A stretch of DNA of 64,000 nucleotides from Tepidiformaceae bacterium (GTDB lineage Bacteria > Chloroflexota > Dehalococcoidia > Tepidiformales > Tepidiformaceae): assembly GCA_041488155.1 (NCBI GenBank), contig JBGPOS010000007.1, positions 11,107 to 75,106 of the forward strand. The letters run 5' to 3'. Within the stretch, counting starts at the first letter, position 1. The number at the start of each line of letters is the position of its first letter. The notes beneath the pieces are model-generated. The model did not search any database. It saw only the letters and a list, made by a program, of their open reading frames with translations, and was not told the origin of the DNA. Made by a program: the position numbers and the translations under genes. This document shows, one piece after another, positions 6,103 to 50,289 of this stretch.

Positions 6103-6890
6103 TGCCGGAGCGAGACAGGCGACCGGCGCGTGTAGTCTGCCTGACCGCGGAAACCACCGAGATCGCCTTCGCTCTCGGCTGCGGCGACCGGATCGTTGGG
6201 GTTTCCGGGTACGCCGTGCGTCCACCCGAGGCGCGCAGGAAGCCGAAGGTGGCCGCGTTCCAGACCGCGCACGTCGAGCGGATCCTGGCGCTACGTCCGG
6301 ACCTCGTCCTCGGCTTCTCGGACCTCCAGGCGGCGATCGTGAGCGACCTTGTTCGCCGCGGCGCCCAGGTGTTGGTCACGAACCAGCGCACGATCGAGGA
6401 GACGTACCTGGCCATCAGCTTGATTGCGGGCGTCCTCGGAGAGCCGGAGGCGGGCCAGCGGCTGATTGAGGAGATGCGAAGTGAACTCGCTGCGATCGGG
6501 GAGCGTGCTGCTGCGGGCTGGGGCCGGCCTCGCGTCTACTTCGAGGAGTGGGACGCGCCGCTCATCAGCGGGATCGCATGGGTCTCGGAGCTGATCGAGC
6601 TTGGCGGCGGGACCGACGTGTTTTCCGACAGGCGCGCGGGTGCGGCCGCCGACCGCACGGTGCAGCCCGAAGAGGTCATCGAGCGGGACCCTGAACTGAT
6701 CGTCGCGAGCTGGTGTGGCAAGAAGGCGCGGCTCGAACGAATCGCCGGACGTCCCGGCTGGGACAAGATCAGCGCCGTACGAATGGCGCGTCTGCATGAA
6801 ATCAAAGCGCCCGACATCCTTCAACCGGGACCATCGCTCGTGCGAGGCGCGGCCCAGCTCGCTCAGCTCATCGCGGAGGCTCGACGTTGA
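6102..6890 (+). CDS. TroA/BtuF-like periplasmic-binding-fold protein with no evident signal peptide
   Basis: An ATG at 6102 overlaps the purS stop (TGATG). VVCLTAETTEIAFALGCGDRIVGVS...RPDLVLGF...PELIVASWCG are hallmarks of class III (cobalamin/siderophore type) binding proteins. The N-terminus is charged, not hydrophobic. Confidence 0.7.
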   Translation: MPERDRRPARVVCLTAETTEIAFALGCGDRIVGVSGYAVRPPEARRKPKVAAFQTAHVERILALRPDLVLGFSDLQAAIVSDLVRRGAQVLVTNQRTIEETYLAISLIAGVLGEPEAGQRLIEEMRSELAAIGERAAAGWGRPRVYFEEWDAPLISGIAWVSELIELGGGTDVFSDRRAGAAADRTVQPEEVIERDPELIVASWCGKKARLERIAGRPGWDKISAVRMARLHEIKAPDILQPGPSLVRGAAQLAQLIAEARR

Positions 6891-7389
6891 CAGGACCAGG
6901 GCGGCCTGCCACCCGCCGCAGGTTATCGACGAGCATGCCCACTTGCGATTCGCTCAGGTGGTCGTCGAGCAAGCCAACATAGGCGTCGTCCTCCGATTCG
7001 AGGTGGACGCGAATTGCGGCATAGAGCCCATGCAGGAGAGGCAAGAGGTAGCGGGCATACGCGGCGGTGTCGCCGTCCTGCCGGGAGGCCTCGACGACAC
7101 TCTCGAGGTCCATAGCCATCGCCGCAAGGCTCCGATGCTGGGCGGCCATCACCGCCGTCACCCCGACCTGACCCACGACCCCGTCCACCGTGGGAAAGAA
7201 GATGAACTCTTCGGCGGAGCTGGCGGGGACGAACACGTCCCGCAGGAACTCCACAGCGGCGTCGAGGGCAGCTAGCGCGACCTTCGTTTCTGCGGGGCCC
7301 ACCGCCGCGGCGGCAACCTGCAACGTCGTCAGCCCGTCGTGGAGGGGCTGACGGAAGTCACGAAGGGGGGCGACGACCCTGTCGGTCAT
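6868..7389 (-). CDS. Hemerythrin (HHE cation-binding) domain protein
   Basis: 173 aa with AEEFIFFP, QHRSL and RVHLESEDD motifs resembling hemerythrin-like four-helix bundles. Confidence 0.6.
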   Translation of the reverse strand: MTDRVVAPLRDFRQPLHDGLTTLQVAAAAVGPAETKVALAALDAAVEFLRDVFVPASSAEEFIFFPTVDGVVGQVGVTAVMAAQHRSLAAMAMDLESVVEASRQDGDTAAYARYLLPLLHGLYAAIRVHLESEDDAYVGLLDDHLSESQVGMLVDNLRRVAGRPGPVNVEPPR

Positions 7390-7424: not shown

Positions 7425-8534
7425 TCAGGGTTGCGAAGGGTTGAGTTGAATCTCCTCGTAGTAGCGCTGGTCGCCCAGCGACTCGACGGCCGTCCAGAAC
7501 TCCGGGCCGCCGGCCTTCGACGGATCCTCGAGGGCCCAGGACTGGCGTCTATAGGACCAGCTCTCGGGGCGCAGGCGCTTTGCTTCCGCGAAGTGGACCT
7601 GGGCGTCGCCCGGGTGGCCCTGCTCGGAGAGATACTCGCCGAGGCGGAAGTGAGCGGCCGCAAGCGCCTGTTCGTCCGTATAGGGCTGGAGCCGCCGGAG
7701 GACCTCTTCTTCGGGAAGGGCGAACGGTGACTGATCGCCGCGTTCGGCCCAGTCGCGCAGAGCGTCGAGATAGCGCCGCCGCGTCTCTCGGAGATCCGCC
7801 AGCGCCTCGGGGGGCATGGCGAACGTGGTGCGATCCATCTGGCGGAAACCGTCGGTGGTGCCCGCGGGTTCGGGCGGCCGGACGATCCGTCCCTCCTCGT
7901 TGATCCAGACGGCGATCGGCACGTTGACCATGTTGTAGAGCTCGGCGACCACGTGGCGCCGGTCGATCAGGCAGGGGTAGGTTGGGTTCGCCCTCTGGAT
8001 CCACTGGCCGGCGGCTTCGGCGCCGCCGCTGTCGAAGGCAACGGCGATGACGACGAAGCCCTTCGGTGCCAGCTCAGTGTAGAGCGCCTGCCACACGGGC
8101 AGGTCCATGCGGCACCCTCACCACGAGGCCCAGGAAACGAGGAACACTTTCTCCCCAAGGTGGTCGTGGAGGGAATGATCGCGACCGTCGAGGTCGGGCA
8201 ACGTGAAGTCAGGAGCCTGCAGAGAACGAAGGGCGCCGGCTCGCGAGCCGCCCGTTTCGCCAAGCGCCCAGGCGTGATGCCCGGAGTCGTGGAGCAGCGG
8301 CTGGCCCAGGTGCCTGGCAAGAGCGGCGATGTTGAACGCCTGGTCGCGAGCGAACTCCTCTGTGCGGGACGGCGGGATGGGCACACAGGCCTCGCCGCGG
8401 CAGGCGCCTTCTGGCTTCAACGACCAACCGGTCGCGCCTTCGAGGTCGCGGAGCGGGATCCAGAGGGACTCGCCCTCCGCAGTGGCAGTGGCCACCGTCG
8501 TGACCCGGTCGTCCATCAAGAGGGTTTCTGACAT
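7425..8534 (-). CDS. Thioredoxin-fold (ResA/TlpA-like) protein with an in-frame UGA at the redox motif; candidate selenoprotein, alternatively a nonsense-split gene
   Basis: ORFs 8118..8579 and 7425..8108 share one frame and are separated only by TGA (8118-8120) GGG TGC CGC. The joined reading is ...EKVFLVSWASW-U-GCRMDLPVWQALYTELAPKGFVVIAVAFD. The probable start ATG at 8534 is preceded by GGGGAGGA. Confidence 0.6.
8065..8117 (-). promoter_or_regulatory. SECIS-like stem-loop immediately 3' of the in-frame UGA
   Basis: mRNA reads UGA-G-GGUGCC-GCAUGGA-CCUGCC-CGUGU-GGCAGG-...-GGCACC. There is a perfect 6-bp apical stem (8087-8103), a 5-nt loop containing G, and an outer 6-bp helix (8111-8116 with 8065-8070). 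Confidence 0.45.
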
Positions 8535-9010
8535 GCGTCCTCCCCGGAGCACGATAGGCTGCCGGTGCCGCCCGGGCAAACGGACGGGGGGCGGACCGGA
8601 TCAACCTGCAGAGATGCTGTGCGCAACGCTCGGCGAACAGGGCTGACTTGGGTAGCCGGCGGGCGAGCGGATCTCTCACCGACTAGGGGATTACCCTTAG
8701 AAGGAACGCCGGAGCGCAGGCAGTTCGCTCACGCCAGAGGCTGTAGGGGGAACGAGCGGCGCGCACGAGATGCCTCGCCGCCCGGATGTATAACACGATT
8801 CCAACACTGATTCGTGGCCAAGTAAGGGATAACATCTATATACTTGCCGAACACTCGATGTCCACTTAAGGCCGGACAAAGGGGTCAAACGGTGACAGAC
8901 AGGGAAACGGCTCGAACCGCCACATCGAGGCCGGCCCGGTTCGCCGAACGCACAAAGCGGCGCACGCCCCGGACCACCATCGTGAGCGCAAAAGCCGAAG
9001 AGAGGTGCGT

Positions 9011-17096: not shown

Positions 17097-18359
17097 TCAG
17101 GCGGCGGCGCCGGCTGCTTCGACGGCCTTCCGCGCAGCCTCGGCTAGGCCGACGGCCCGGATGACTGGTACGCCGGACTCGGCGATGAGCTTCTCGCCCT
17201 CGGCAAGGTTGGTGCCGACGAGGCGCACCACGACAGGCACAGTGATCTTCATCTGCCGGTGAGCCTCGATGACGCCCTGGGCGATGATGTCGACCCGGGC
17301 CATGCCGCCGAAGATGTTGACGAGGATGGCCTTGACGGATGGGTCTTCGAGGATGACTTTGAGCGCGCTCACCACCCGTTGGGGGTCGTTGACGGTGCCG
17401 ATGTCGAGGAAATTCGCGGGTTCGCCGCCCGCCAGTTTGATCGTGTCCATCGTCGCCATCGCGAGGCCTGCCCCGTTGACCACGCAGCCGATGTTGCCTT
17501 CGAGCTTGATGAAGTTCGAGACGCCGAGCTCCTGCGCGAGCACCTCGAGGGGATCCTCTTCATCTTTGTCGCGCAGCGCCTCCAGGTCCTTGTGGCGGAA
17601 GAGCGCGTTGTCATCGATGGTGCACTTGGCATCGAGGGCGAGGACCCGGCCGTCGCCAGTGACTACGAGGGGGTTGACTTCGACCAGGCTGGCGTCGCTT
17701 GCGACGGCGGCCTTGTAGAGGCCTTCCGCGAGTTTGGCGAACTGGTCGGCCTGGTCGCCCTTGAAACCGAGCCGGGCGGCGAGCGTGCGGCCGACGTACG
17801 GTTCGAAACCTGCCATAGGGTTTACCGGCACGCGCGCGATGGCCCCGGGATTGCTGTGGGCAACGACTTCAATCTCCTGGCCGCCTTCGGTCGACGCCAT
17901 GATCAGGGGGCAGCCCTGGGCGCCATCGATGATGATGGCGAGGTAGTACTCCTTCGCGACCGCCGACTGCTCCTCTACGAGGACGTGCTTGACGAGCTTG
18001 CCTTCGGGCCCGGTCTGCACGGAGACCAGGTGCTTCCCCAGGATGTTTGCAGCTTCGCGCTCCGCCTCTTCCGGGTTGGAGGCGAGCCTGACGCCGCCCA
18101 CCCTTTCGCCGCGCACCTGCCCGGAGAAGCCGGAGGGATCGGCGGTCAGCCGTTGGTACATCGCGGCCGTTTCGGACTGGCCGACCAGGCGGCCCTTACC
18201 CCGCGCACCGGCGTGGATCTGCGCCTTGACGACGACCGGCCCGCCGAGCTGGGTTGCCACCGCTCGCGCTTCGGCTGGCGTAGAGGCGACCCGCCCCTTC
18301 GGCACGGCGACGCCATAGCGGGCGAACAGCTCTTTCGCCTGGTATTCGTGGATCTTCAA
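17097..18359 (-). CDS. sucC: Succinate--CoA ligase (ADP-forming) beta subunit
   Basis: TTG start at 18359 gives (M)KIHEYQAKELFARYGV..., the canonical SucC N-terminus, with GGAG 9 nt upstream. ATP-grasp and CoA-ligase domains are present throughout. Confidence 0.92.
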   Translation of the reverse strand: MKIHEYQAKELFARYGVAVPKGRVASTPAEARAVATQLGGPVVVKAQIHAGARGKGRLVGQSETAAMYQRLTADPSGFSGQVRGERVGGVRLASNPEEAEREAANILGKHLVSVQTGPEGKLVKHVLVEEQSAVAKEYYLAIIIDGAQGCPLIMASTEGGQEIEVVAHSNPGAIARVPVNPMAGFEPYVGRTLAARLGFKGDQADQFAKLAEGLYKAAVASDASLVEVNPLVVTGDGRVLALDAKCTIDDNALFRHKDLEALRDKDEEDPLEVLAQELGVSNFIKLEGNIGCVVNGAGLAMATMDTIKLAGGEPANFLDIGTVNDPQRVVSALKVILEDPSVKAILVNIFGGMARVDIIAQGVIEAHRQMKITVPVVVRLVGTNLAEGEKLIAESGVPVIRAVGLAEAARKAVEAAGAAA

Positions 18360-18442
18360 GTCACTGCTCCGGGGAGGGGTTGCAGCGGTGAGCCTACAGC
18401 CCCCAGGAGGTAGCCGGTAGAGCGACGGGATGTTGAGCAGGG

Positions 18443-18528
18443 TGGCGGAGAGGGAGGGATTCGAACCCCCGGAGCTTTCGCTCACACGTTTTCAGGACGC
18501 GCGCCTTAAGCCACTCGGCCACCTCTCC
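18443..18528 (-). tRNA. tRNA-Ser (class II, long variable arm; anticodon read as UGA), CCA encoded
   Basis: Acceptor GGAGAGG/CCTCTCC, discriminator G, variable arm GAGC-GAAA-GCTC, T loop TTCGAAT. The anticodon arm CGCGT-CCTGAAA-ACGTG places UGA at 34-36 but C at position 33. Confidence 0.8.
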
Positions 18529-41368: not shown

Positions 41369-41504
41369 CGACCCCGGCCGTCGCGCGAGGCGACGAGTGT
41401 GGCCCTGGTGCAGAGATTCCGGGGCCTCACAGCTTCGATCATAGGGAGGAAGGTACCCCTGTCAACCGAAGCCGGGGCGCGTGGCGGATGGCGGCCTCGC
41501 AGCG

Positions 41505-42119
41505 TCAGGGAATCGCGTCCCGCAACAGCGCCTCGATCCCGGCGGCGACCTCGGGCCGGTTGGCGTTGCGAAAGCTGCGCAGATCGGGGTCCATGGCGCG
41601 CAGTTCGGGCTCGCGGACGATGCGGACCCGGAGCGAGGCGAACGCAGCGGTGATCTTGAGGACGTCGCGTTCCACAGATTCGCGGAACACCGGCAGGCAG
41701 GTCTCAGCCCGGTAGACGGCGGAGAGGGGCTGGGGGAACCCGCCGGCGTGTGGGCAGACGATGTCGTAGCCCTCGGCGAGCGAAGCGATGTGCACCACGA
41801 GCTCGGGCCGAAGGAGGGGGGCGTCGCAGGAAGTTGCGAAGCAAAGGCCATCGCCCACGGTGCCCAAGCCTGCGACGAGGCCCGCGAGGGGCCCTTTACC
41901 TTCGTACAGATCCTCTACGGACTCGATCGGGATGGCGCAGTCGATGTGCGGGAGCACCTGCCCTGCGGCCCGCACAACCACGATCGACAGGCAGACGCCT
42001 TCAAGCCGGGACACGACCCACTGGAGCATCGGCTTCCCCGCAAGGACCGCGGACGCCTTGTCCTCGCCAAAGCGAGTGCTCTTCCCGCCGGCGAGGATCA
42101 GTCCGGCCAGGGGCGTCAT
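41505..42119 (-). CDS. mobA: Molybdenum cofactor guanylyltransferase (MobA-like NTP transferase)
   Basis: LAGLILAGGKSTRFGEDKA...GPLAGL...CDAPLL are MobA motifs. Confidence 0.82.
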   Translation of the reverse strand: MTPLAGLILAGGKSTRFGEDKASAVLAGKPMLQWVVSRLEGVCLSIVVVRAAGQVLPHIDCAIPIESVEDLYEGKGPLAGLVAGLGTVGDGLCFATSCDAPLLRPELVVHIASLAEGYDIVCPHAGGFPQPLSAVYRAETCLPVFRESVERDVLKITAAFASLRVRIVREPELRAMDPDLRSFRNANRPEVAAGIEALLRDAIP

Positions 42120-42161
42120 CGTGTTCTCCTCCCCGTCCTAGCCCGGCGGCTCAAGCTTAGA

Positions 42162-42923
42162 ATGACGGCCGTGGACCTCTACGAAGCTTTCGGGCTCTCC
42201 CCTGGTGCGATCGTGGCGGCGGTCGGCGGCGGAGGCAAGACCAGCCTCGTGTTCGGCCTGGCGGAGGACGCTGCCAGCCGGGGGATGTCGGCCATTGTTA
42301 CGTCCACAACGAGGTTTACCAGACCGCCGCACGGCAGCATGCCGCCGGTCGTCACCACGGACGATGGGAGTGCGGTGCGAGCCGCGCGCGAAGCGCTCAA
42401 GACAGAGTCTGTGTTCGTGCTTTGCGCCGGGATGGGAAGCCGTGGGAGATTCCTGGGATTGCAGCCGGAGACGATCGGAGCGCTCGCGCAGGTCGGCGCC
42501 GGTGTGATCGCTGTCGAAGCCGACGGCTCGGCGCATCGGCCCTTCAAGGCGCCGGCGGATCACGAACCGGCGGTGCCAGCGGTCGCCACAGACGTGGTCC
42601 TTTGCGTCGGACTCGAAGTGCTCGGCAAGCCGCTCGACGACAGGTATGTGCATCGGCCTGAACTCGTGGCGAGGCTCGCACGGGCCACCGCCGGGACGCC
42701 GGTCACTGCCGACATGATCATCAGTGTCCTCCTGGACGAGGCCGGCGGCCGGAAGAACGTCCCGCCGGGCGCAAGGCTGCACGCATTGCTCAACGCACCA
42801 CCGACCGACGAGCACGTGAAGCTCGGCACGTACATCGCCCAGCGCGTGGTGTTTGGGGGCTACTGCCGCGCGGTGATAGCGACCGCCCATCGACGGGGCG
42901 ACGTCGTCGCGGTCGTGCAATAG
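42162..42923 (+). CDS. yqeC: YqeC-family protein (putative selenium-dependent molybdenum hydroxylase accessory protein)
   Basis: ATG at 42162. IVAAVGGGGKTSLVFGLAEDA...IVTSTTRF...VEADGSAHRPFKAPADHEPAVP follows the YqeC pattern as I remember it. The upstream part of the 480-aa ORF is antisense to mobA. Confidence 0.78.
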   Translation: MTAVDLYEAFGLSPGAIVAAVGGGGKTSLVFGLAEDAASRGMSAIVTSTTRFTRPPHGSMPPVVTTDDGSAVRAAREALKTESVFVLCAGMGSRGRFLGLQPETIGALAQVGAGVIAVEADGSAHRPFKAPADHEPAVPAVATDVVLCVGLEVLGKPLDDRYVHRPELVARLARATAGTPVTADMIISVLLDEAGGRKNVPPGARLHALLNAPPTDEHVKLGTYIAQRVVFGGYCRAVIATAHRRGDVVAVVQ

Positions 42924-46956: not shown

Positions 46957-49900
46957 ATGCCGACCCCGCGAATCCAGCGCCAGGTTTCGTCGCTCCTCGA
47001 CCGCGCGGACGCTGCCGTCGCGGCAGGCGATTGGGACAGCGTCCGGGAACTTGCGACGACTGTGCTCCGCCTCGACCCTGGCAACGAAGACGCGACCGCT
47101 TACCTCGAAGCGGTGGCGCGCGACGCGGGGGTGGCCGCGGCTCCGGCCGTTGCCACCCGGCAGGCCGGCGACGAGACGGGCGAGCGGCGGCAGCTCACCG
47201 TTATGTTTTGCGACCTCGTGGACTCGACAGCCATCGCCGAACGGCTCGACCCCGAAGACTACAGGGACGTGCTGCGCGCCTACCAGGACGTCTGCGCCGC
47301 AGAGGTGGAAAAGCTCGACGGACATGTCGCGCGCTATATGGGCGACGGGATGCTCGTCTACTTCGGCTACCCGGAGGCTCACGAGGACGACCCGAGGCGC
47401 GCGATCCGCGCCGGACTCGCGATGGTAGAAAGCGTGCGGGCACTCAACTCGCGCGCCGATGCTGGCGCCGCTCACCTGGCCGCCCGCGTGGGTGTCCACA
47501 CCGGCCTCGTAGTGATCGCCGAGATGGGCAGCGGCGAACGACGCGAGACGGGGGACGTGGTTGGAGAGACACCGAACATCGCCGCACGCCTCCAGGGTCT
47601 CGCAAGGCCGGACATGGTGGTGATCAGCGATGACACCTGCCGCCTGGCGCGCGGGTTCTTCGAGTTTGAGTCCCTGGGGGATCAACAGCTCAAGGGCATC
47701 TCGCGCCCTATACCGGCCTGGGCGGTGCTCGCCGATACCGGGGGCCACGATCGTCTCGAGGTCTCTTCGGGCCAAGTACTTACGCCGCTGGTGGGCCGCG
47801 ACGCGGAACTGGCCGCGCTGGCTGCGGCCTGGGAACGCGCGAAGGGTGGCCAGGGGCAGGTCGTCCTCATCGAGGGGGAGGCCGGTATCGGCAAATCGCG
47901 GCTCGTCCGCACCACGGCAGAACGGTTCGGGACGGTGGGCCGCACGCGGTTGGAGATTCGCTGCTCCCCCTACCACCAGATGAGCGCCTTCTACCCCATC
48001 ATCGAGATGCTGCAGCGAGCCCTGGGCAATGCGCCGGGGGACCCACCGGAAACGCGCCTCCAGAGCCTCGAGGTGGCTGGCGCGCAGGCTGGCCTCAGCG
48101 TCGAGGCGACCAGCCTCGTCGCGTCGCTGCTTTCGCTGCCCGTGCCCCCGGGCGCTGCCCTCCCACCCATGACACCGGCGCAACAGAAACAGCGCACCCT
48201 GCACGCGCTGCAGGATTGGCTCAAAGCGATCGCCCGGACGGACCCCGTCCTTGTCATCGTCGAAGACCTGCACTGGGCGGACCCATCGACGCTTGAGTTC
48301 CTTGACCTTGTCATCGCCAACGGCCTCGGCGCCAACATCCTCGCGGTCCTCACGTTCCGTCCCGAGTTCTCGGCGCCGTGGCCGGCCGAAGACTACGTCT
48401 CGACCATCAAGGTCGCCCGCCTTGGGCACCGGGCTACCGCGGAGATGGTCGCTCGCTTTACCGCGGGAAGGTCGATCCCGCAAGAGGTGCTCGATGAGCT
48501 CATCGACCGCACGGACGGCGTCCCCCTTTTCGTCGAGGAGCTGACGGCTGAGGTGCTCCAGTCGGCCGGGGCCGAAGGGAACGGACATCAGCGACCTTCG
48601 GGCGCGCGCGTGCTCGTGCCAGCCACGCTTCACGACTCCCTGATGGCGCGATTGGACCGCCTGTCGGAGTTCAAGGAGGTCTACCAGGTGGGCGCGGTAC
48701 TGGGCCGGGAGTTCGGGCATAGCCTGATACGGCGAGCCACGGGCATCCCGGAGGTAGCGCTCGGGCAGGGGCTCCGCGCGCTCGTCGATGCGGGGCTACT
48801 CTTCCAACGCGGGGCGCCTCCCGACGCTCGTTACTCCTGGAAGCATGCGCTCCTGCAGGATGCCGCCTACCAGTCGCTGCTCAAGACCCGCCGGGTGCGT
48901 ATCCACGGCGACATCGCGAAGACGTTCGAGGAGCACTTCCCGGAGGTACGCGACACGCAGCCCGAAATCGTCGCCCGCCACTACACCGAGGCGGAGATGG
49001 CGGAGAAGGCCCTCGCTTACTGGGAGCAGGCGGCTGCGCTCGCCGTGCGGCGATCGGCGCACGCCGAGGCCATCACCCACCTCCGGGCCGCCCTCAAGCT
49101 CGTCGAAGACCTGCCGGACGATGAGGCGCGGATGGCCCGCGAGCTCCGGCTCAATCTCGGTCTCGCGCGCTCCATCACGCCGGTCCACGGATTCGTCGCG
49201 GCGGGCCCTGCGTTCAACCGTGCCCTCGAACTCTTCCATCGCCTTCCGGCCGACCCGAGCGGCGCTGCCATCCTCACGGGCGTCGCCTCCTACAACATCG
49301 TCCGCGGCCAACTCGATGCAGCCCTTGAAACCGCCATGGAGTTGGCCGACCTCGGCCGCCGCTTCGAGCGTCCCCCTATCGTCCTCCGCGGGTACAGCGA
49401 CGCGGTCCGCGCCTGCTGGATGCGTGGCGAAGTCGCCCGGGGGTACGAGTACGTCGAACGGTGCCGCGCATTGCTCTGGGCGACGCCCACTCCCGAACGG
49501 ATTCCGCTCACCGCCGCCGACAGCTGGGTCTACCTGGCCTACGCGCCGTTCGTGCTCCAGGCGCACGGCCTTCCCGACCAGGCCACGGCCCTCGCCGCGG
49601 ACAACGACGCGATCCTCCGTGAGAGGGAACCAACCGAAATTGCCAGTGCGCTTGTCTTCATCGCCTGGCTCGAACTCTTCCGCAACGACGACGACGCGAT
49701 GCTGAGGTACGCCGATGAAGCGATCGCCGTCACGGCAAACCTGGGATTCCACTTCTGGGAGGCGCCGCCGCACTGCTTCCGGGGGCTGGCGTTGTTGCGC
49801 CGCGGGGAGCTAGAAGAGGGCTTCCGCGAGTTCAGCTTTGGGTTTGACACCTGGCGCAACATGGGCATCGAAGCAGCCCAGCCGAACTTCTGGACCCTCC

Positions 49901-50289
49901 GCGCCGAGTGCCTCCACGCCATGGGCAACCCCACCGGCGCTCTCGCAGCGCTGGAGGCGGCCCAGCAGGTCATCGCCCAGACCCGCGAGCGCTACTACGA
50001 GCCCGAGGTGCACCGTCTGCGCGGTCAGATCTTGCTCGCATCGGGCGACCCCGCCGCCGCGGAACGCTCCTTCGCGTCGGCGATCTCCCTGGCTCGCGGC
50101 CTCGGCATGAAGTCGTGGGAACTGCGGGGTTCGACCGACCTCGCCGAGCTGTTGCATGGGCGCGGCGATGAAAGCCGTGCCCGTGAAACGCTTTCGCCGA
50201 TCCTTCGCGGCTACACCGAAGGCGCGGGAACCCCCGACATTCGCCGAGCCAACAACCTCCTCGACGCCATTGAGCAGGCAGTCCGCTAG
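46957..50289 (+). CDS. Class III adenylate/guanylate cyclase fused to a STAND-type AAA ATPase and TPR array (1110 aa)
   Basis: RQLTVMFCDLVDSTA...YMGDGMLVYFGYP...VGETPNIAARL (cyclase). LVGRDAELAAL...VVLIEGEAGIGKSRLV (P-loop). Long helical repeat C-terminus. Confidence 0.88.
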   Translation: MPTPRIQRQVSSLLDRADAAVAAGDWDSVRELATTVLRLDPGNEDATAYLEAVARDAGVAAAPAVATRQAGDETGERRQLTVMFCDLVDSTAIAERLDPEDYRDVLRAYQDVCAAEVEKLDGHVARYMGDGMLVYFGYPEAHEDDPRRAIRAGLAMVESVRALNSRADAGAAHLAARVGVHTGLVVIAEMGSGERRETGDVVGETPNIAARLQGLARPDMVVISDDTCRLARGFFEFESLGDQQLKGISRPIPAWAVLADTGGHDRLEVSSGQVLTPLVGRDAELAALAAAWERAKGGQGQVVLIEGEAGIGKSRLVRTTAERFGTVGRTRLEIRCSPYHQMSAFYPIIEMLQRALGNAPGDPPETRLQSLEVAGAQAGLSVEATSLVASLLSLPVPPGAALPPMTPAQQKQRTLHALQDWLKAIARTDPVLVIVEDLHWADPSTLEFLDLVIANGLGANILAVLTFRPEFSAPWPAEDYVSTIKVARLGHRATAEMVARFTAGRSIPQEVLDELIDRTDGVPLFVEELTAEVLQSAGAEGNGHQRPSGARVLVPATLHDSLMARLDRLSEFKEVYQVGAVLGREFGHSLIRRATGIPEVALGQGLRALVDAGLLFQRGAPPDARYSWKHALLQDAAYQSLLKTRRVRIHGDIAKTFEEHFPEVRDTQPEIVARHYTEAEMAEKALAYWEQAAALAVRRSAHAEAITHLRAALKLVEDLPDDEARMARELRLNLGLARSITPVHGFVAAGPAFNRALELFHRLPADPSGAAILTGVASYNIVRGQLDAALETAMELADLGRRFERPPIVLRGYSDAVRACWMRGEVARGYEYVERCRALLWATPTPERIPLTAADSWVYLAYAPFVLQAHGLPDQATALAADNDAILREREPTEIASALVFIAWLELFRNDDDAMLRYADEAIAVTANLGFHFWEAPPHCFRGLALLRRGELEEGFREFSFGFDTWRNMGIEAAQPNFWTLRAECLHAMGNPTGALAALEAAQQVIAQTRERYYEPEVHRLRGQILLASGDPAAAERSFASAISLARGLGMKSWELRGSTDLAELLHGRGDESRARETLSPILRGYTEGAGTPDIRRANNLLDAIEQAVR

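What the first reader, a model, noticed from the sequence alone, without database searches (positions are those of the whole stretch)
7425..8579. Candidate selenoprotein: in-frame UGA exactly at the redox position of a ResA/TlpA-like thioredoxin fold (W-A-x-x-U-G-C) with a SECIS-like hairpin
Two adjacent minus-strand ORFs (8118..8579 and 7425..8108) share one frame, separated only by TGA (8118-8120), GGG, TGC and CGC. Read through, the junction is ...DHLGEKVFLVSWASW-U-GCRMDLPVWQALYTELAPKGFVVIAVAFD. TlpA/ResA-type proteins carry the nucleophilic Cys of W-C-x-x-C right after beta-1 (VFLVSW) and before helix alpha-1, and that is where the UGA sits. Neither half alone is a complete thioredoxin fold. 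On the mRNA, 14 nt after UGA, there is a perfect hairpin CCUGCC-CGUGU-GGCAGG (8087-8103). Its apical loop starts about 20 nt after UGA and contains G, which fits the geometry reported for bacterial SECIS elements. An outer helix GGUGCC/GGCACC (8111-8116 with 8065-8070) encloses it. I recall a curated family label 'ResA-like WAxxUGC motif', which this sequence (WASWUGC) would match letter for letter. That recollection needs checking. Caveat: GGUGAGGG upstream of ATG 8108 could act as a Shine-Dalgarno sequence, so a split two-gene or pseudogene state is not excluded.
Basis: partly seen in the sequence, partly recalled or inferred. Interest (0 to 1): 0.8.

Follow-up and report, generated by a model that had tools for sequence, protein, structure and literature searches.

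The report
Known UGC-motif selenoprotein gene, mis-annotated
This is one intact gene for a thioredoxin-fold protein whose in-frame UGA very probably encodes selenocysteine; it belongs to an already catalogued selenoprotein family, so it is an annotation fix and not a discovery.

Summary
On the minus strand one frame runs from ATG 8534 to stop 7425. It is interrupted only by TGA 8118-8120, giving ...VFLVSWASW-U-GCRMDLPVWQ.... With U read as C, the 369-aa product matches NCBIfam NF041054 'ResA-like WAxxUGC motif-containing protein' end to end (366 bits, cutoff 300). [quoted passage not shown] All 156 relatives recovered with a stop at this codon, from many phyla, have TGA there. True Cys forms (TGC) have W-A-S-W-C-G-C. 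The 17-nt hairpin (8087-8103) meets every criterion of the bacterial SECIS model. It is conserved, shows compensatory changes, and constrains synonymous sites only in Sec forms. The redox motif is U-x-C, not CxxC. The downstream ATG is not a conserved start, so the two-gene reading fails. No selA/B/C/D lies in the window, but a YqeC selenium-cofactor gene does. The protein has no signal peptide. It has a ResA-like core, an N-terminal domain with an invariant C-x4-C pair and no solved structural relative, and a helical C-terminal domain. Function is untested.

The parts
7425..8534 (-). One gene for a 369-residue selenoprotein (ATG 8534-8532 to stop TGA 7427-7425), member of NCBIfam NF041054
   Evidence: Continuous frame. 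NF041054 at 366 bits against cutoff 300, covering profile positions 8-352 of 354. Frame kept through the TGA in 156 relatives.
8539..8543 (-). GGAGG Shine-Dalgarno-like sequence 4 nt upstream of ATG 8534
   Evidence: Read directly from the sequence. Inferred, not tested.
8118..8120 (-). In-frame TGA = predicted selenocysteine codon (Sec139) in W-A-S-W-U-G-C
   Evidence: TGA at this codon in 80 of 80 genome loci and 75 metagenome loci. Cys (TGC) in true Cys forms L163-L165 and L148.
8112..8114 (-). TGC = Cys141, the predicted resolving residue of the U-G-C motif
   Evidence: Invariant Cys: TGC 72 and TGT 5 among 77 sequences.
8087..8103 (-). SECIS hairpin: 6-bp stem CCUGCC/GGCAGG with 5-nt loop CGUGU, 14 nt after UGA
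   Evidence: MFE -10.6 kcal/mol. 98.3% of cells paired across 77 sequences, and RNAalifold selects it. Compensatory changes and synonymous-site constraint. Meets the bSECIS criteria quoted in PMC13188914.
8220..8534 (-). N-terminal family-specific domain (aa 1-105), beta-rich, with invariant Cys45 (8402-8400) and Cys50 (8387-8385)
   Evidence: AF2 pLDDT 87.4. No PDB fold match, best E 0.46. G43, C45 and C50 invariant in 64 sequences. C-x4-C present in 143 Sec-form genes.
7815..8219 (-). ResA/TlpA-like thioredoxin-fold domain (about aa 106-240)
   Evidence: Pfam AhpC-TSA and Redoxin at aa 106-218. Foldseek on the P0002 model: ResA 2f9s/1su9/1st9, E 1.7e-10, rmsd 1.2 A over 114 columns.
7428..7802 (-). 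C-terminal all-helical, TPR-like domain (about aa 245-369)
   Evidence: Helices at 248-357 in the AF2 model of P0002, pLDDT 95. Weak Pfam TPR_2 hit at aa 292-324, below the gathering score.

Best explanation
Positions 7425-8534 on the minus strand are one gene, not two. When the ribosome reaches UGA 8118-8120, the 17-nt hairpin 14 nt downstream (8103-8087) sits just outside the mRNA channel. This hairpin has a loop N-G-[U/G]-N-U. It recruits SelB-GTP-Sec-tRNA(Sec), so selenocysteine is inserted instead of termination. The product is a soluble, probably cytoplasmic, 369-residue protein with three domains. Sec139-Gly-Cys141 lies at the N-terminus of helix alpha-1 of a ResA-like thioredoxin fold. 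There Sec is the attacking nucleophile and Cys141 resolves it into a selenylsulfide. The protein would therefore act as a thiol/selenol oxidoreductase with a CxC-type centre instead of a CxxC-type one. Shown here: gene continuity, the Sec/Cys pair, family membership, SECIS geometry with conservation and covariation, the fold, and the absence of an export signal. Inferred from established knowledge of bacterial Sec decoding and Trx-fold chemistry: SelB recruitment, actual Se incorporation, the redox mechanism, and any role of the N-domain Cys pair.
For: NF041054 at 366 bits against cutoff 300, full length. TGA at the same codon in 80 of 80 species genomes from Binatia, Chloroflexota, Methylomirabilota, Burkholderiales, Acidobacteriota, Myxococcota and Vulcanimicrobiota, and in 75 metagenome loci. 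Cys in 64 full-length homologues, with TGC verified in DNA. Hairpin: 98.3% of cells paired. Column 27/43 switches C-G to U-A through a synonymous GAC>GAT change in 6 of 6 cases, Fisher 1.2e-7. TTG...CAA occurs three times, and CTC...GAG twice, where a Q>E change is compensated by a Leu codon otherwise never used. The stem Leu codon is YTG in 148 of 151 sequences, against 93 of 247 at two other Leu sites (p 1e-39). The loop G is present in 151 of 151 Sec forms but its codon is lost in 16 of 64 Cys forms (p 9e-10). Stem-incompatible peptides occur in 13 of 64 Cys forms against 2 of 151 Sec forms (p 3.5e-6). bSECIS criteria met: loop 5 nt, stem 6 bp, G-U in the loop, 20-nt spacing, -10.6 kcal/mol. 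TGA is also the commonest ordinary stop in the window (29 of 56) and ends this gene. A YqeC selenium-cofactor gene lies in the same window (TIGR03172, 149 bits against 73). ResA superposes at 1.2 A. No TM segment or signal peptide.
Against: No selA, selB, selD or tRNA-Sec in the 64-kb window or in the 1.57 Mb of fetched flanks, so the machinery is unconfirmed for this genome. The peptide L-P-x-W-Q is also conserved in Cys forms, and the four Cys-form DNAs examined can still form the 5-bp core, so part of the hairpin is forced by coding. In a 41-nt context the window's RNA prefers a competing fold. No member of the family has been studied experimentally in the literature I could search, so the function is inference only.
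Confidence: 0.92

Rival explanations
1. Split gene or pseudogene. A nonsense mutation truncates the protein after Trp138, and a second product may restart at ATG 8108 using GGUGAGGG as a Shine-Dalgarno sequence.
For: Gene callers do split it. P0001 (227 aa, 'hypothetical protein') is the public annotation, and 52 of the 120 best database hits are such C-terminal fragments. An SD-like GGUGAGG lies 6 nt upstream of ATG 8108.
Against: The same TGA with an intact frame on both sides occurs in 156 relatives across phyla, which is incompatible with independent decay. The ATG at codon +4 is present in only 20 of 156, and 56 of 156 have no in-frame start within 16 codons. GGUGAGG is fixed by the W-U-G codons. 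Neither half is a complete Trx fold: the break falls between beta-1 and alpha-1. The fragments start at three different places.
Confidence: 0.03
2. The UGA is read through or reassigned as a standard amino acid (Trp, Cys or Gly), not as selenocysteine.
For: One gene caller translated the homologous TGA as Trp in P0004. Sec machinery was not seen in the window.
Against: TGA is the commonest ordinary stop in the window (29 of 56 ORFs) and terminates this gene. 58 of 145 relatives also end in TGA. The codon aligns with the catalytic Cys of a redox motif and is followed by a SECIS-type hairpin with Sec-form-specific constraint. The taxa involved are not known to use code 4 or 25 (established knowledge).
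Confidence: 0.03
3. It is a selenoprotein, but the U-G-C centre, with or without the N-domain C-x4-C pair, binds a metal or metalloid (Zn, Cu, Hg, As or Fe) instead of cycling as a selenylsulfide.
For: CxC plus a second Cys pair is a common metal-site pattern, for example the Hsp33 zinc centre (from memory). Four Cys/Sec positions are invariant. Several catalogued bacterial selenoproteins with UxC or UxxU motifs are metal-related (Table 1 of PMC13188914). The local neighbours are a hemerythrin and a BtuF/TroA-like binding protein.
Against: The Trx-fold position of the motif and the ResA-like geometry favour redox chemistry. Those neighbours are not conserved across the family. I could not measure the distance between the two Cys pairs because model coordinates are not exposed.
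Confidence: 0.15
4. Sequencing or assembly error turned TGC or TGG into TGA.
For: None specific.
Against: The identical fragment is encoded on two independent JGI metagenome contigs (L081, L082) as well as in an NCBI record. TGA is universal in relatives.
Confidence: 0.01

Closest known systems
NCBIfam NF041054 'ResA-like WAxxUGC motif-containing protein' (WAxxUGC_long). [quoted passage not shown] 2026, PMC13188914) and 'Prx-like (UGC-containing)' (Zhang & Gladyshev 2008, PMC2398784).
   Same: Motif W-A-S-W-U-G-C, full-length three-domain architecture, score above the curated cutoff, and one Sec per protein.
   Different: Nothing of substance. It is 63% identical to the nearest Sec form (L001) and 58% to the nearest Cys form (P0002). 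I did not prove that the GOS 'Prx-like (UGC)' set and the long-form NCBIfam are the same set; they match only by motif and name.
Bacillus subtilis ResA and Bradyrhizobium TlpA (extracytoplasmic thiol-disulfide oxidoreductases of cytochrome maturation)
   Same: Thioredoxin fold with the ResA-type insert (rmsd 1.2 A over 114 columns, TMt 0.77). Trp precedes the redox centre, which lies at the start of helix alpha-1.
   Different: U-x-C or C-x-C instead of C-x-x-C. No membrane anchor or signal peptide. Extra N- and C-terminal domains. Scores far below the ResA and TlpA cutoffs: 69 against 170, and 39 against 230.
Escherichia coli fdhF-type bacterial SECIS (consensus bSECIS model)
   Same: A hairpin inside the coding region directly after UGA. 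Small apical loop with G followed by U or G. The UGA-to-loop distance is within 16-37 nt, and the hairpin is stable.
   Different: Unrelated sequence. A plain 6-bp stem with no bulged U. SelB binding has not been tested. No Rfam model covers it.
Eukaryotic Sep15/SELENOF (Cys-Gly-Sec in a thioredoxin-like fold). This comparison is from memory and was not checked here.
   Same: A one-residue spacer between Cys and Sec in a Trx-like fold.
   Different: The order is reversed (C-G-U against U-G-C). It is an ER-resident eukaryotic protein with its SECIS in the 3' UTR. No sequence relationship was shown.
Peroxiredoxins (Pfam AhpC-TSA)
   Same: Pfam AhpC-TSA hit above the gathering score, 62.7 bits. 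The nucleophile is at the equivalent fold position.
   Different: The PxxxTxxC/U peroxidatic motif is absent: the residues at -3 and -7 from Sec are Ala and Leu. The best structural matches are ResA-type, not Prx.

Membership tests
NCBIfam NF041054 (ResA-like WAxxUGC motif-containing protein, long form) | HMM score at or above the curated equivalog cutoff (300 bits), covering the whole profile | tested here: met
   366.1 bits, E 2e-109, residues 26-362 matched to profile positions 8-352 of 354 (with U entered as C).
NCBIfam NF041054 (ResA-like WAxxUGC motif-containing protein, long form) | W-A-x-x-U-G-C motif with U encoded by in-frame TGA | tested here: met
   WASW-TGA-GC at 8132-8112.
Bacterial selenoprotein gene | In-frame UGA aligned with a conserved Cys in homologues (Sec/Cys pair) | tested here: met
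   64 full-length homologues have Cys. TGC was verified in L163, L164, L165 and L148. 155 relatives have TGA.
Bacterial selenoprotein gene | SECIS hairpin fitting the bSECIS model: loop 3-9 nt, stem 4-16 bp, G in the first two loop positions, 16-37 nt from UGA, MFE <= -7.5 kcal/mol | tested here: met
   Loop 5 nt (CGUGU), stem 6 bp, spacing 20 nt, -10.6 kcal/mol. Criteria taken from PMC13188914.
Bacterial selenoprotein gene | SECIS conserved, with covariation, in orthologues that carry UGA | tested here: met
   98.3% paired. Compensatory U-A and C-G switches. Sec-form-specific constraint on synonymous sites and on the peptide.
Bacterial selenoprotein gene | Genome encodes selA, selB, selC (tRNA-Sec) and selD | not testable with these tools
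   Only 64 kb of the genome is available and none is present in it. Indirect support: a YqeC selenium-cofactor gene, a SelD-dependent trait, at 41481-42923.
Bacterial selenoprotein gene | Selenium shown in the protein (75Se labelling or mass spectrometry) | not testable with these tools
   Requires an experiment.
ResA/TlpA/CcmG thiol-disulfide oxidoreductases | C-x-x-C active site | tested here: not met
   U-G-C here and C-G-C in Cys forms, with a one-residue spacer.
ResA/TlpA/CcmG thiol-disulfide oxidoreductases | N-terminal membrane anchor or signal peptide (extracytoplasmic location) | tested here: not met
   Maximum KD(19) is 1.19 overall and 0.42 in the first 40 residues. The N-terminus is a folded beta-rich domain.
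ResA/TlpA/CcmG thiol-disulfide oxidoreductases | Family HMM score above the curated cutoff | tested here: not met
   ResA NF002854, 69 bits against 170. TlpA NF047696, 39 against 230. DsbE TIGR00385, 19 against 123.
ResA/TlpA/CcmG thiol-disulfide oxidoreductases | ResA-type thioredoxin fold | tested here: met
   Foldseek top hits are ResA 2f9s, 1su9 and 1st9: E 1.7e-10, rmsd 1.2-1.6 A, TMt 0.77. The model was of homologue P0002.
Peroxiredoxin (AhpC/TSA) | PxxxT/SxxC(U) peroxidatic motif | tested here: not met
   The sequence before Sec is L-V-S-W-A-S-W, with no Pro at -7 and no Thr/Ser at -3.

The most novel reading that the evidence does not exclude
The family-specific N-terminal domain has no solved structural relative and carries an invariant C-x4-C pair about 94 residues before Sec. 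It may work with the unusual U-G-C centre as an intramolecular redox relay or as a four-ligand Se/S metal site. That would make this widespread soil and groundwater protein a new type of cytoplasmic selenoenzyme and not a ResA-like disulfide reductase.
Probability: 0.2. Interest if true: 0.5.

Novelty: already known. Interest (0 to 1): 0.22.

Why it matters
The practical value is in annotation. The public record calls the 3' fragment a 'hypothetical protein'. About half of the closest database entries are similarly truncated, and a few carry Trp at the Sec position. The family is abundant in uncultured soil and groundwater lineages such as Binatia, Dehalococcoidia and Methylomirabilota, and it has never been characterised biochemically. 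It offers a natural pair, U-x-C against C-x-C, in a Trx fold for studying one-residue-spacer redox centres. The Sec-form against Cys-form comparison made here is a clean in-silico demonstration that a short SECIS embedded in coding sequence constrains both synonymous sites and amino-acid choice.

Tried and rejected
1. I tried to obtain Cys-form DNA as a control through a metagenome scan with a Cys-form alignment. 75 of the 80 loci turned out to be Sec forms and only one was Cys. I therefore fell back on the peptide-level comparison of 64 Cys-form proteins, plus four verified Cys-form DNAs.
I modelled homologue P0002 and the window's N-domain instead.
3. Gene-neighbourhood clustering over 80 loci found no partner conserved across phyla, only synteny within clades, and it was noisy because of antisense ORFs in high-GC DNA.
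This is uninformative.
5. Rfam scans at the gathering threshold and at a permissive threshold found no SECIS family.
6. A scan for other TGA-interrupted coding frames in the window gave two same-frame gene junctions (10841, 20773) with no redox motif, and I rejected both.
7. A full-text search for 'WAxxUGC' returned no papers. The family appears in the literature under other names.

Full report
OBSERVATION. On the minus strand, the ORFs 8118..8579 and 7425..8108 share one frame. Only TGA (8118-8120), GGG, TGC and CGC lie between them. The read-through is ...GEKVFLVSWASW-*-GCRMDLPVWQALY.... The most plausible start is ATG 8534, which has GGAGG 4 nt upstream. This gives a 369-residue product with the stop at position 139.

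FAMILY. With U entered as C, the protein hits NCBIfam NF041054.1 'WAxxUGC_long: ResA-like WAxxUGC motif-containing protein' at 366.1 bits. The curated cutoff is 300, and the match covers profile positions 8-352 of 354. ResA, StoA, TlpA and DsbE models score far below their cutoffs. Pfam sees AhpC-TSA and Redoxin at residues 106-218 and a weak TPR hit near 292-324.

The family is also in the literature. [quoted passage not shown] 2016. [quoted passage not shown] A full-text search for 'WAxxUGC' itself finds nothing.

SEC/CYS PAIR AND CONTINUITY. A protein search gave 1275 hits. The full-length proteins (350-396 aa, 45-58% identity) carry W-A-S-W-C-G-C at this place. 52 of the 120 best hits are fragments of 218-229 aa at 66-71% identity. 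They begin at three different positions just after the motif, which is the signature of gene callers restarting after a stop.

A scan of one genome per species found at least 565 relatives. All 80 best loci carry TGA at exactly this codon with the frame intact. These loci come from Binataceae, Dehalococcoidia, Anaerolineae, Methylomirabilota/Rokubacteria, Burkholderiales, Acidobacteriota, Myxococcales and Vulcanimicrobiota.

A metagenome scan seeded with the Cys forms unexpectedly also returned 75 TGA forms and one TGC form. I therefore checked that the database 'C' is real. P0002, P0006 and P0019 (Myxococcus stipitatus) have TGC. P0004, which shows Trp at this column, has TGA read under another genetic code.

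UGA is not reassigned in these organisms. It is the commonest ordinary stop in the window (29 of 56 ORFs) and it ends this very gene. 58 of 145 relatives also end in TGA.

SECIS. The criteria quoted in PMC13188914 are an apical loop of 3-9 nt, a stem of 4-16 bp, a G in the first two loop positions (usually G followed by G or U), 16-37 nt between UGA and the loop, and MFE of -7.5 kcal/mol or lower. The window hairpin has a 5-nt loop C-G-U-G-U, a 6-bp stem, 20-nt spacing and -10.6 kcal/mol.

Across 77 distinct Sec-form sequences, RNAalifold selects this hairpin and 98.3% of cells are paired.

The stem is encoded by D-L-P-V-W-Q-A, which is also conserved in Cys forms. Conservation alone therefore proves little, so I looked for RNA-level signals:
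- The outermost pair switches from C-G to U-A in all six sequences whose downstream codon starts with A. The switch is made by the synonymous change GAC>GAT (Fisher 1.2e-7, six different lineages).
- Leu TTG pairs with Gln CAA in three sequences. In two sequences Gln>Glu (GAG) is accompanied by Leu CTC, a codon otherwise never used here, which restores a C-G pair.
- The stem Leu codon is YTG in 148 of 151 sequences, against 93 of 247 at two nearby Leu sites in the same genes (p 1e-39).
- The only substitution for Pro is Ser TCN, which keeps a G-U pair. Cys forms also show Ala, Thr and Val there. Peptides that cannot encode the stem occur in 13 of 64 Cys forms against 2 of 151 Sec forms (p 3.5e-6).
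- The loop G is present in 151 of 151 Sec forms, but its codon is lost in 16 of 64 Cys forms (p 9e-10).

There are caveats. These counts are not phylogenetically corrected. The four Cys-form DNAs in hand can still form the 5-bp core. In a 41-nt context the window RNA prefers a competing fold that uses the non-conserved Arg-Met codons. That fold needs nucleotides +6 to +16 after the UGA, which should lie inside the ribosome when UGA is in the A site; this last point is inference. Rfam has no model for the element.

TWO-GENE RIVAL. The ATG four codons after the UGA is present in only 20 of 156 Sec-form genes, and 56 of 156 have no in-frame ATG, GTG or TTG within 16 codons. The 'Shine-Dalgarno' GGUGAGG is simply the codons for Trp-Sec-Gly. 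The break falls between strand beta-1 and helix alpha-1 of the Trx fold, so neither half could fold alone.

SELENIUM MACHINERY. The window holds three tRNAs, none of them tRNA-Sec. The ORFs of suitable size are not SelA, SelB or SelD. Searches of the fetched flanks were negative too. With 64 kb of one genome this test cannot be completed. The window does encode YqeC (41481-42923; TIGR03172, 149 bits against a cutoff of 73). From my own knowledge, YqeC is a marker of the SelD-dependent selenium-cofactor trait. This is indirect evidence that the organism handles selenium.

ARCHITECTURE AND LIKELY MECHANISM. AlphaFold2 on the closest true Cys homologue, P0002, gave pLDDT 95.4 and pTM 0.92. The model has a beta-rich N-terminal domain, a Trx fold and a helical C-terminal domain. 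Foldseek places the Trx domain on B. subtilis ResA at rmsd 1.2 A over 114 columns and TMt 0.77.

The window's own N-domain (residues 1-105) models at pLDDT 87. It has no significant match in the PDB, the best being E 0.46. Gly43, Cys45 and Cys50 are invariant, and the C-x4-C pair is kept in 143 Sec-form genes.

There is no TM segment or signal peptide. Unlike ResA and TlpA, the protein should therefore be cytoplasmic. The Prx motif PxxxTxxC is absent. No neighbour is conserved across phyla. The downstream hemerythrin gene is shared only with two Dehalococcoidia loci.

The most likely mechanism is SelB- and SECIS-dependent insertion of Sec139. Sec139 then acts as the nucleophile of a U-x-C selenylsulfide redox centre. 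A metal-binding role for U-G-C together with C45/C50 cannot be excluded.

VERDICT. The new information here is limited to three things: Sec-form-specific evidence for the SECIS, the description of an uncharacterised N-terminal Cys-pair domain, and the extent of mis-annotation in public data. Interest is low to moderate.

Noticed in passing
window 41481-42923 (+); the domain is at residues 244-455 of the ORF, so the true start is probably near 42210: Gene for the selenium cofactor biosynthesis protein YqeC (TIGR03172, 149 bits against cutoff 73; Pfam PF19842). As I recall, this is a marker of the SelD-dependent labile-selenium cofactor trait. It is independent evidence of selenium use in this organism.
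   Followed up: partly
window 6868-7389 (-): A hemerythrin-domain gene (PF01814) lies 35 nt downstream of the selenoprotein gene on the same strand, so it may be co-transcribed. The arrangement is shared only with Dehalococcoidia loci L001 and L057 and is not family-wide.
   Followed up: partly
window 8220-8534 (-); Cys45 at 8402-8400, Cys50 at 8387-8385: The N-terminal domain of about 100 residues has an invariant G-x-C-x4-C and no significant structural match in the PDB (best Foldseek E 0.46). Its role is unknown: a redox relay or a metal ligand.
   Followed up: partly
database proteins P0001, P0037-P0120 (fragments) and P0004, P0007: Mis-annotation of this family is widespread. 52 of the 120 best hits are C-terminal fragments that restart after the UGA. 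The window's own fragment is called 'hypothetical protein'. P0004 shows Trp at the Sec position because TGA was translated under another genetic code (verified in L166). P0007 has the same WASWWGC and was not checked.
   Followed up: yes
L046:1944-2021 and L104 (Sec-form loci): Two TGA-containing relatives have a disrupted hairpin region: the peptide is VVHGGQ in L046 and DLPVWY in L104. They could be pseudogenes, assembly errors or tolerated variants.
   Followed up: no
window 8080-8120 (-): In a 41-nt context the window RNA prefers a competing hairpin (GCCGCAUGG/CCGUGUGGC, -22 kcal/mol) that overlaps the conserved SECIS. It depends on the Arg-Met codons, which are not conserved in relatives.
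   Followed up: partly
window 46957-50289 (+): A 1110-residue protein resembles the TOMM-system kinase/cyclase fusion (TIGR03903, 517 bits, below the cutoff of 706). It is probably an adenylate cyclase/ATPase/TPR signalling protein.
   Followed up: no
window 18443-18528 (-) and ORF 17097-18485 (-): The longest ORF for the sucC-like gene overlaps tRNA-Ser(tga), so its real start must be further downstream. This tRNA is a normal tRNA-Ser, not tRNA-Sec.
   Followed up: no
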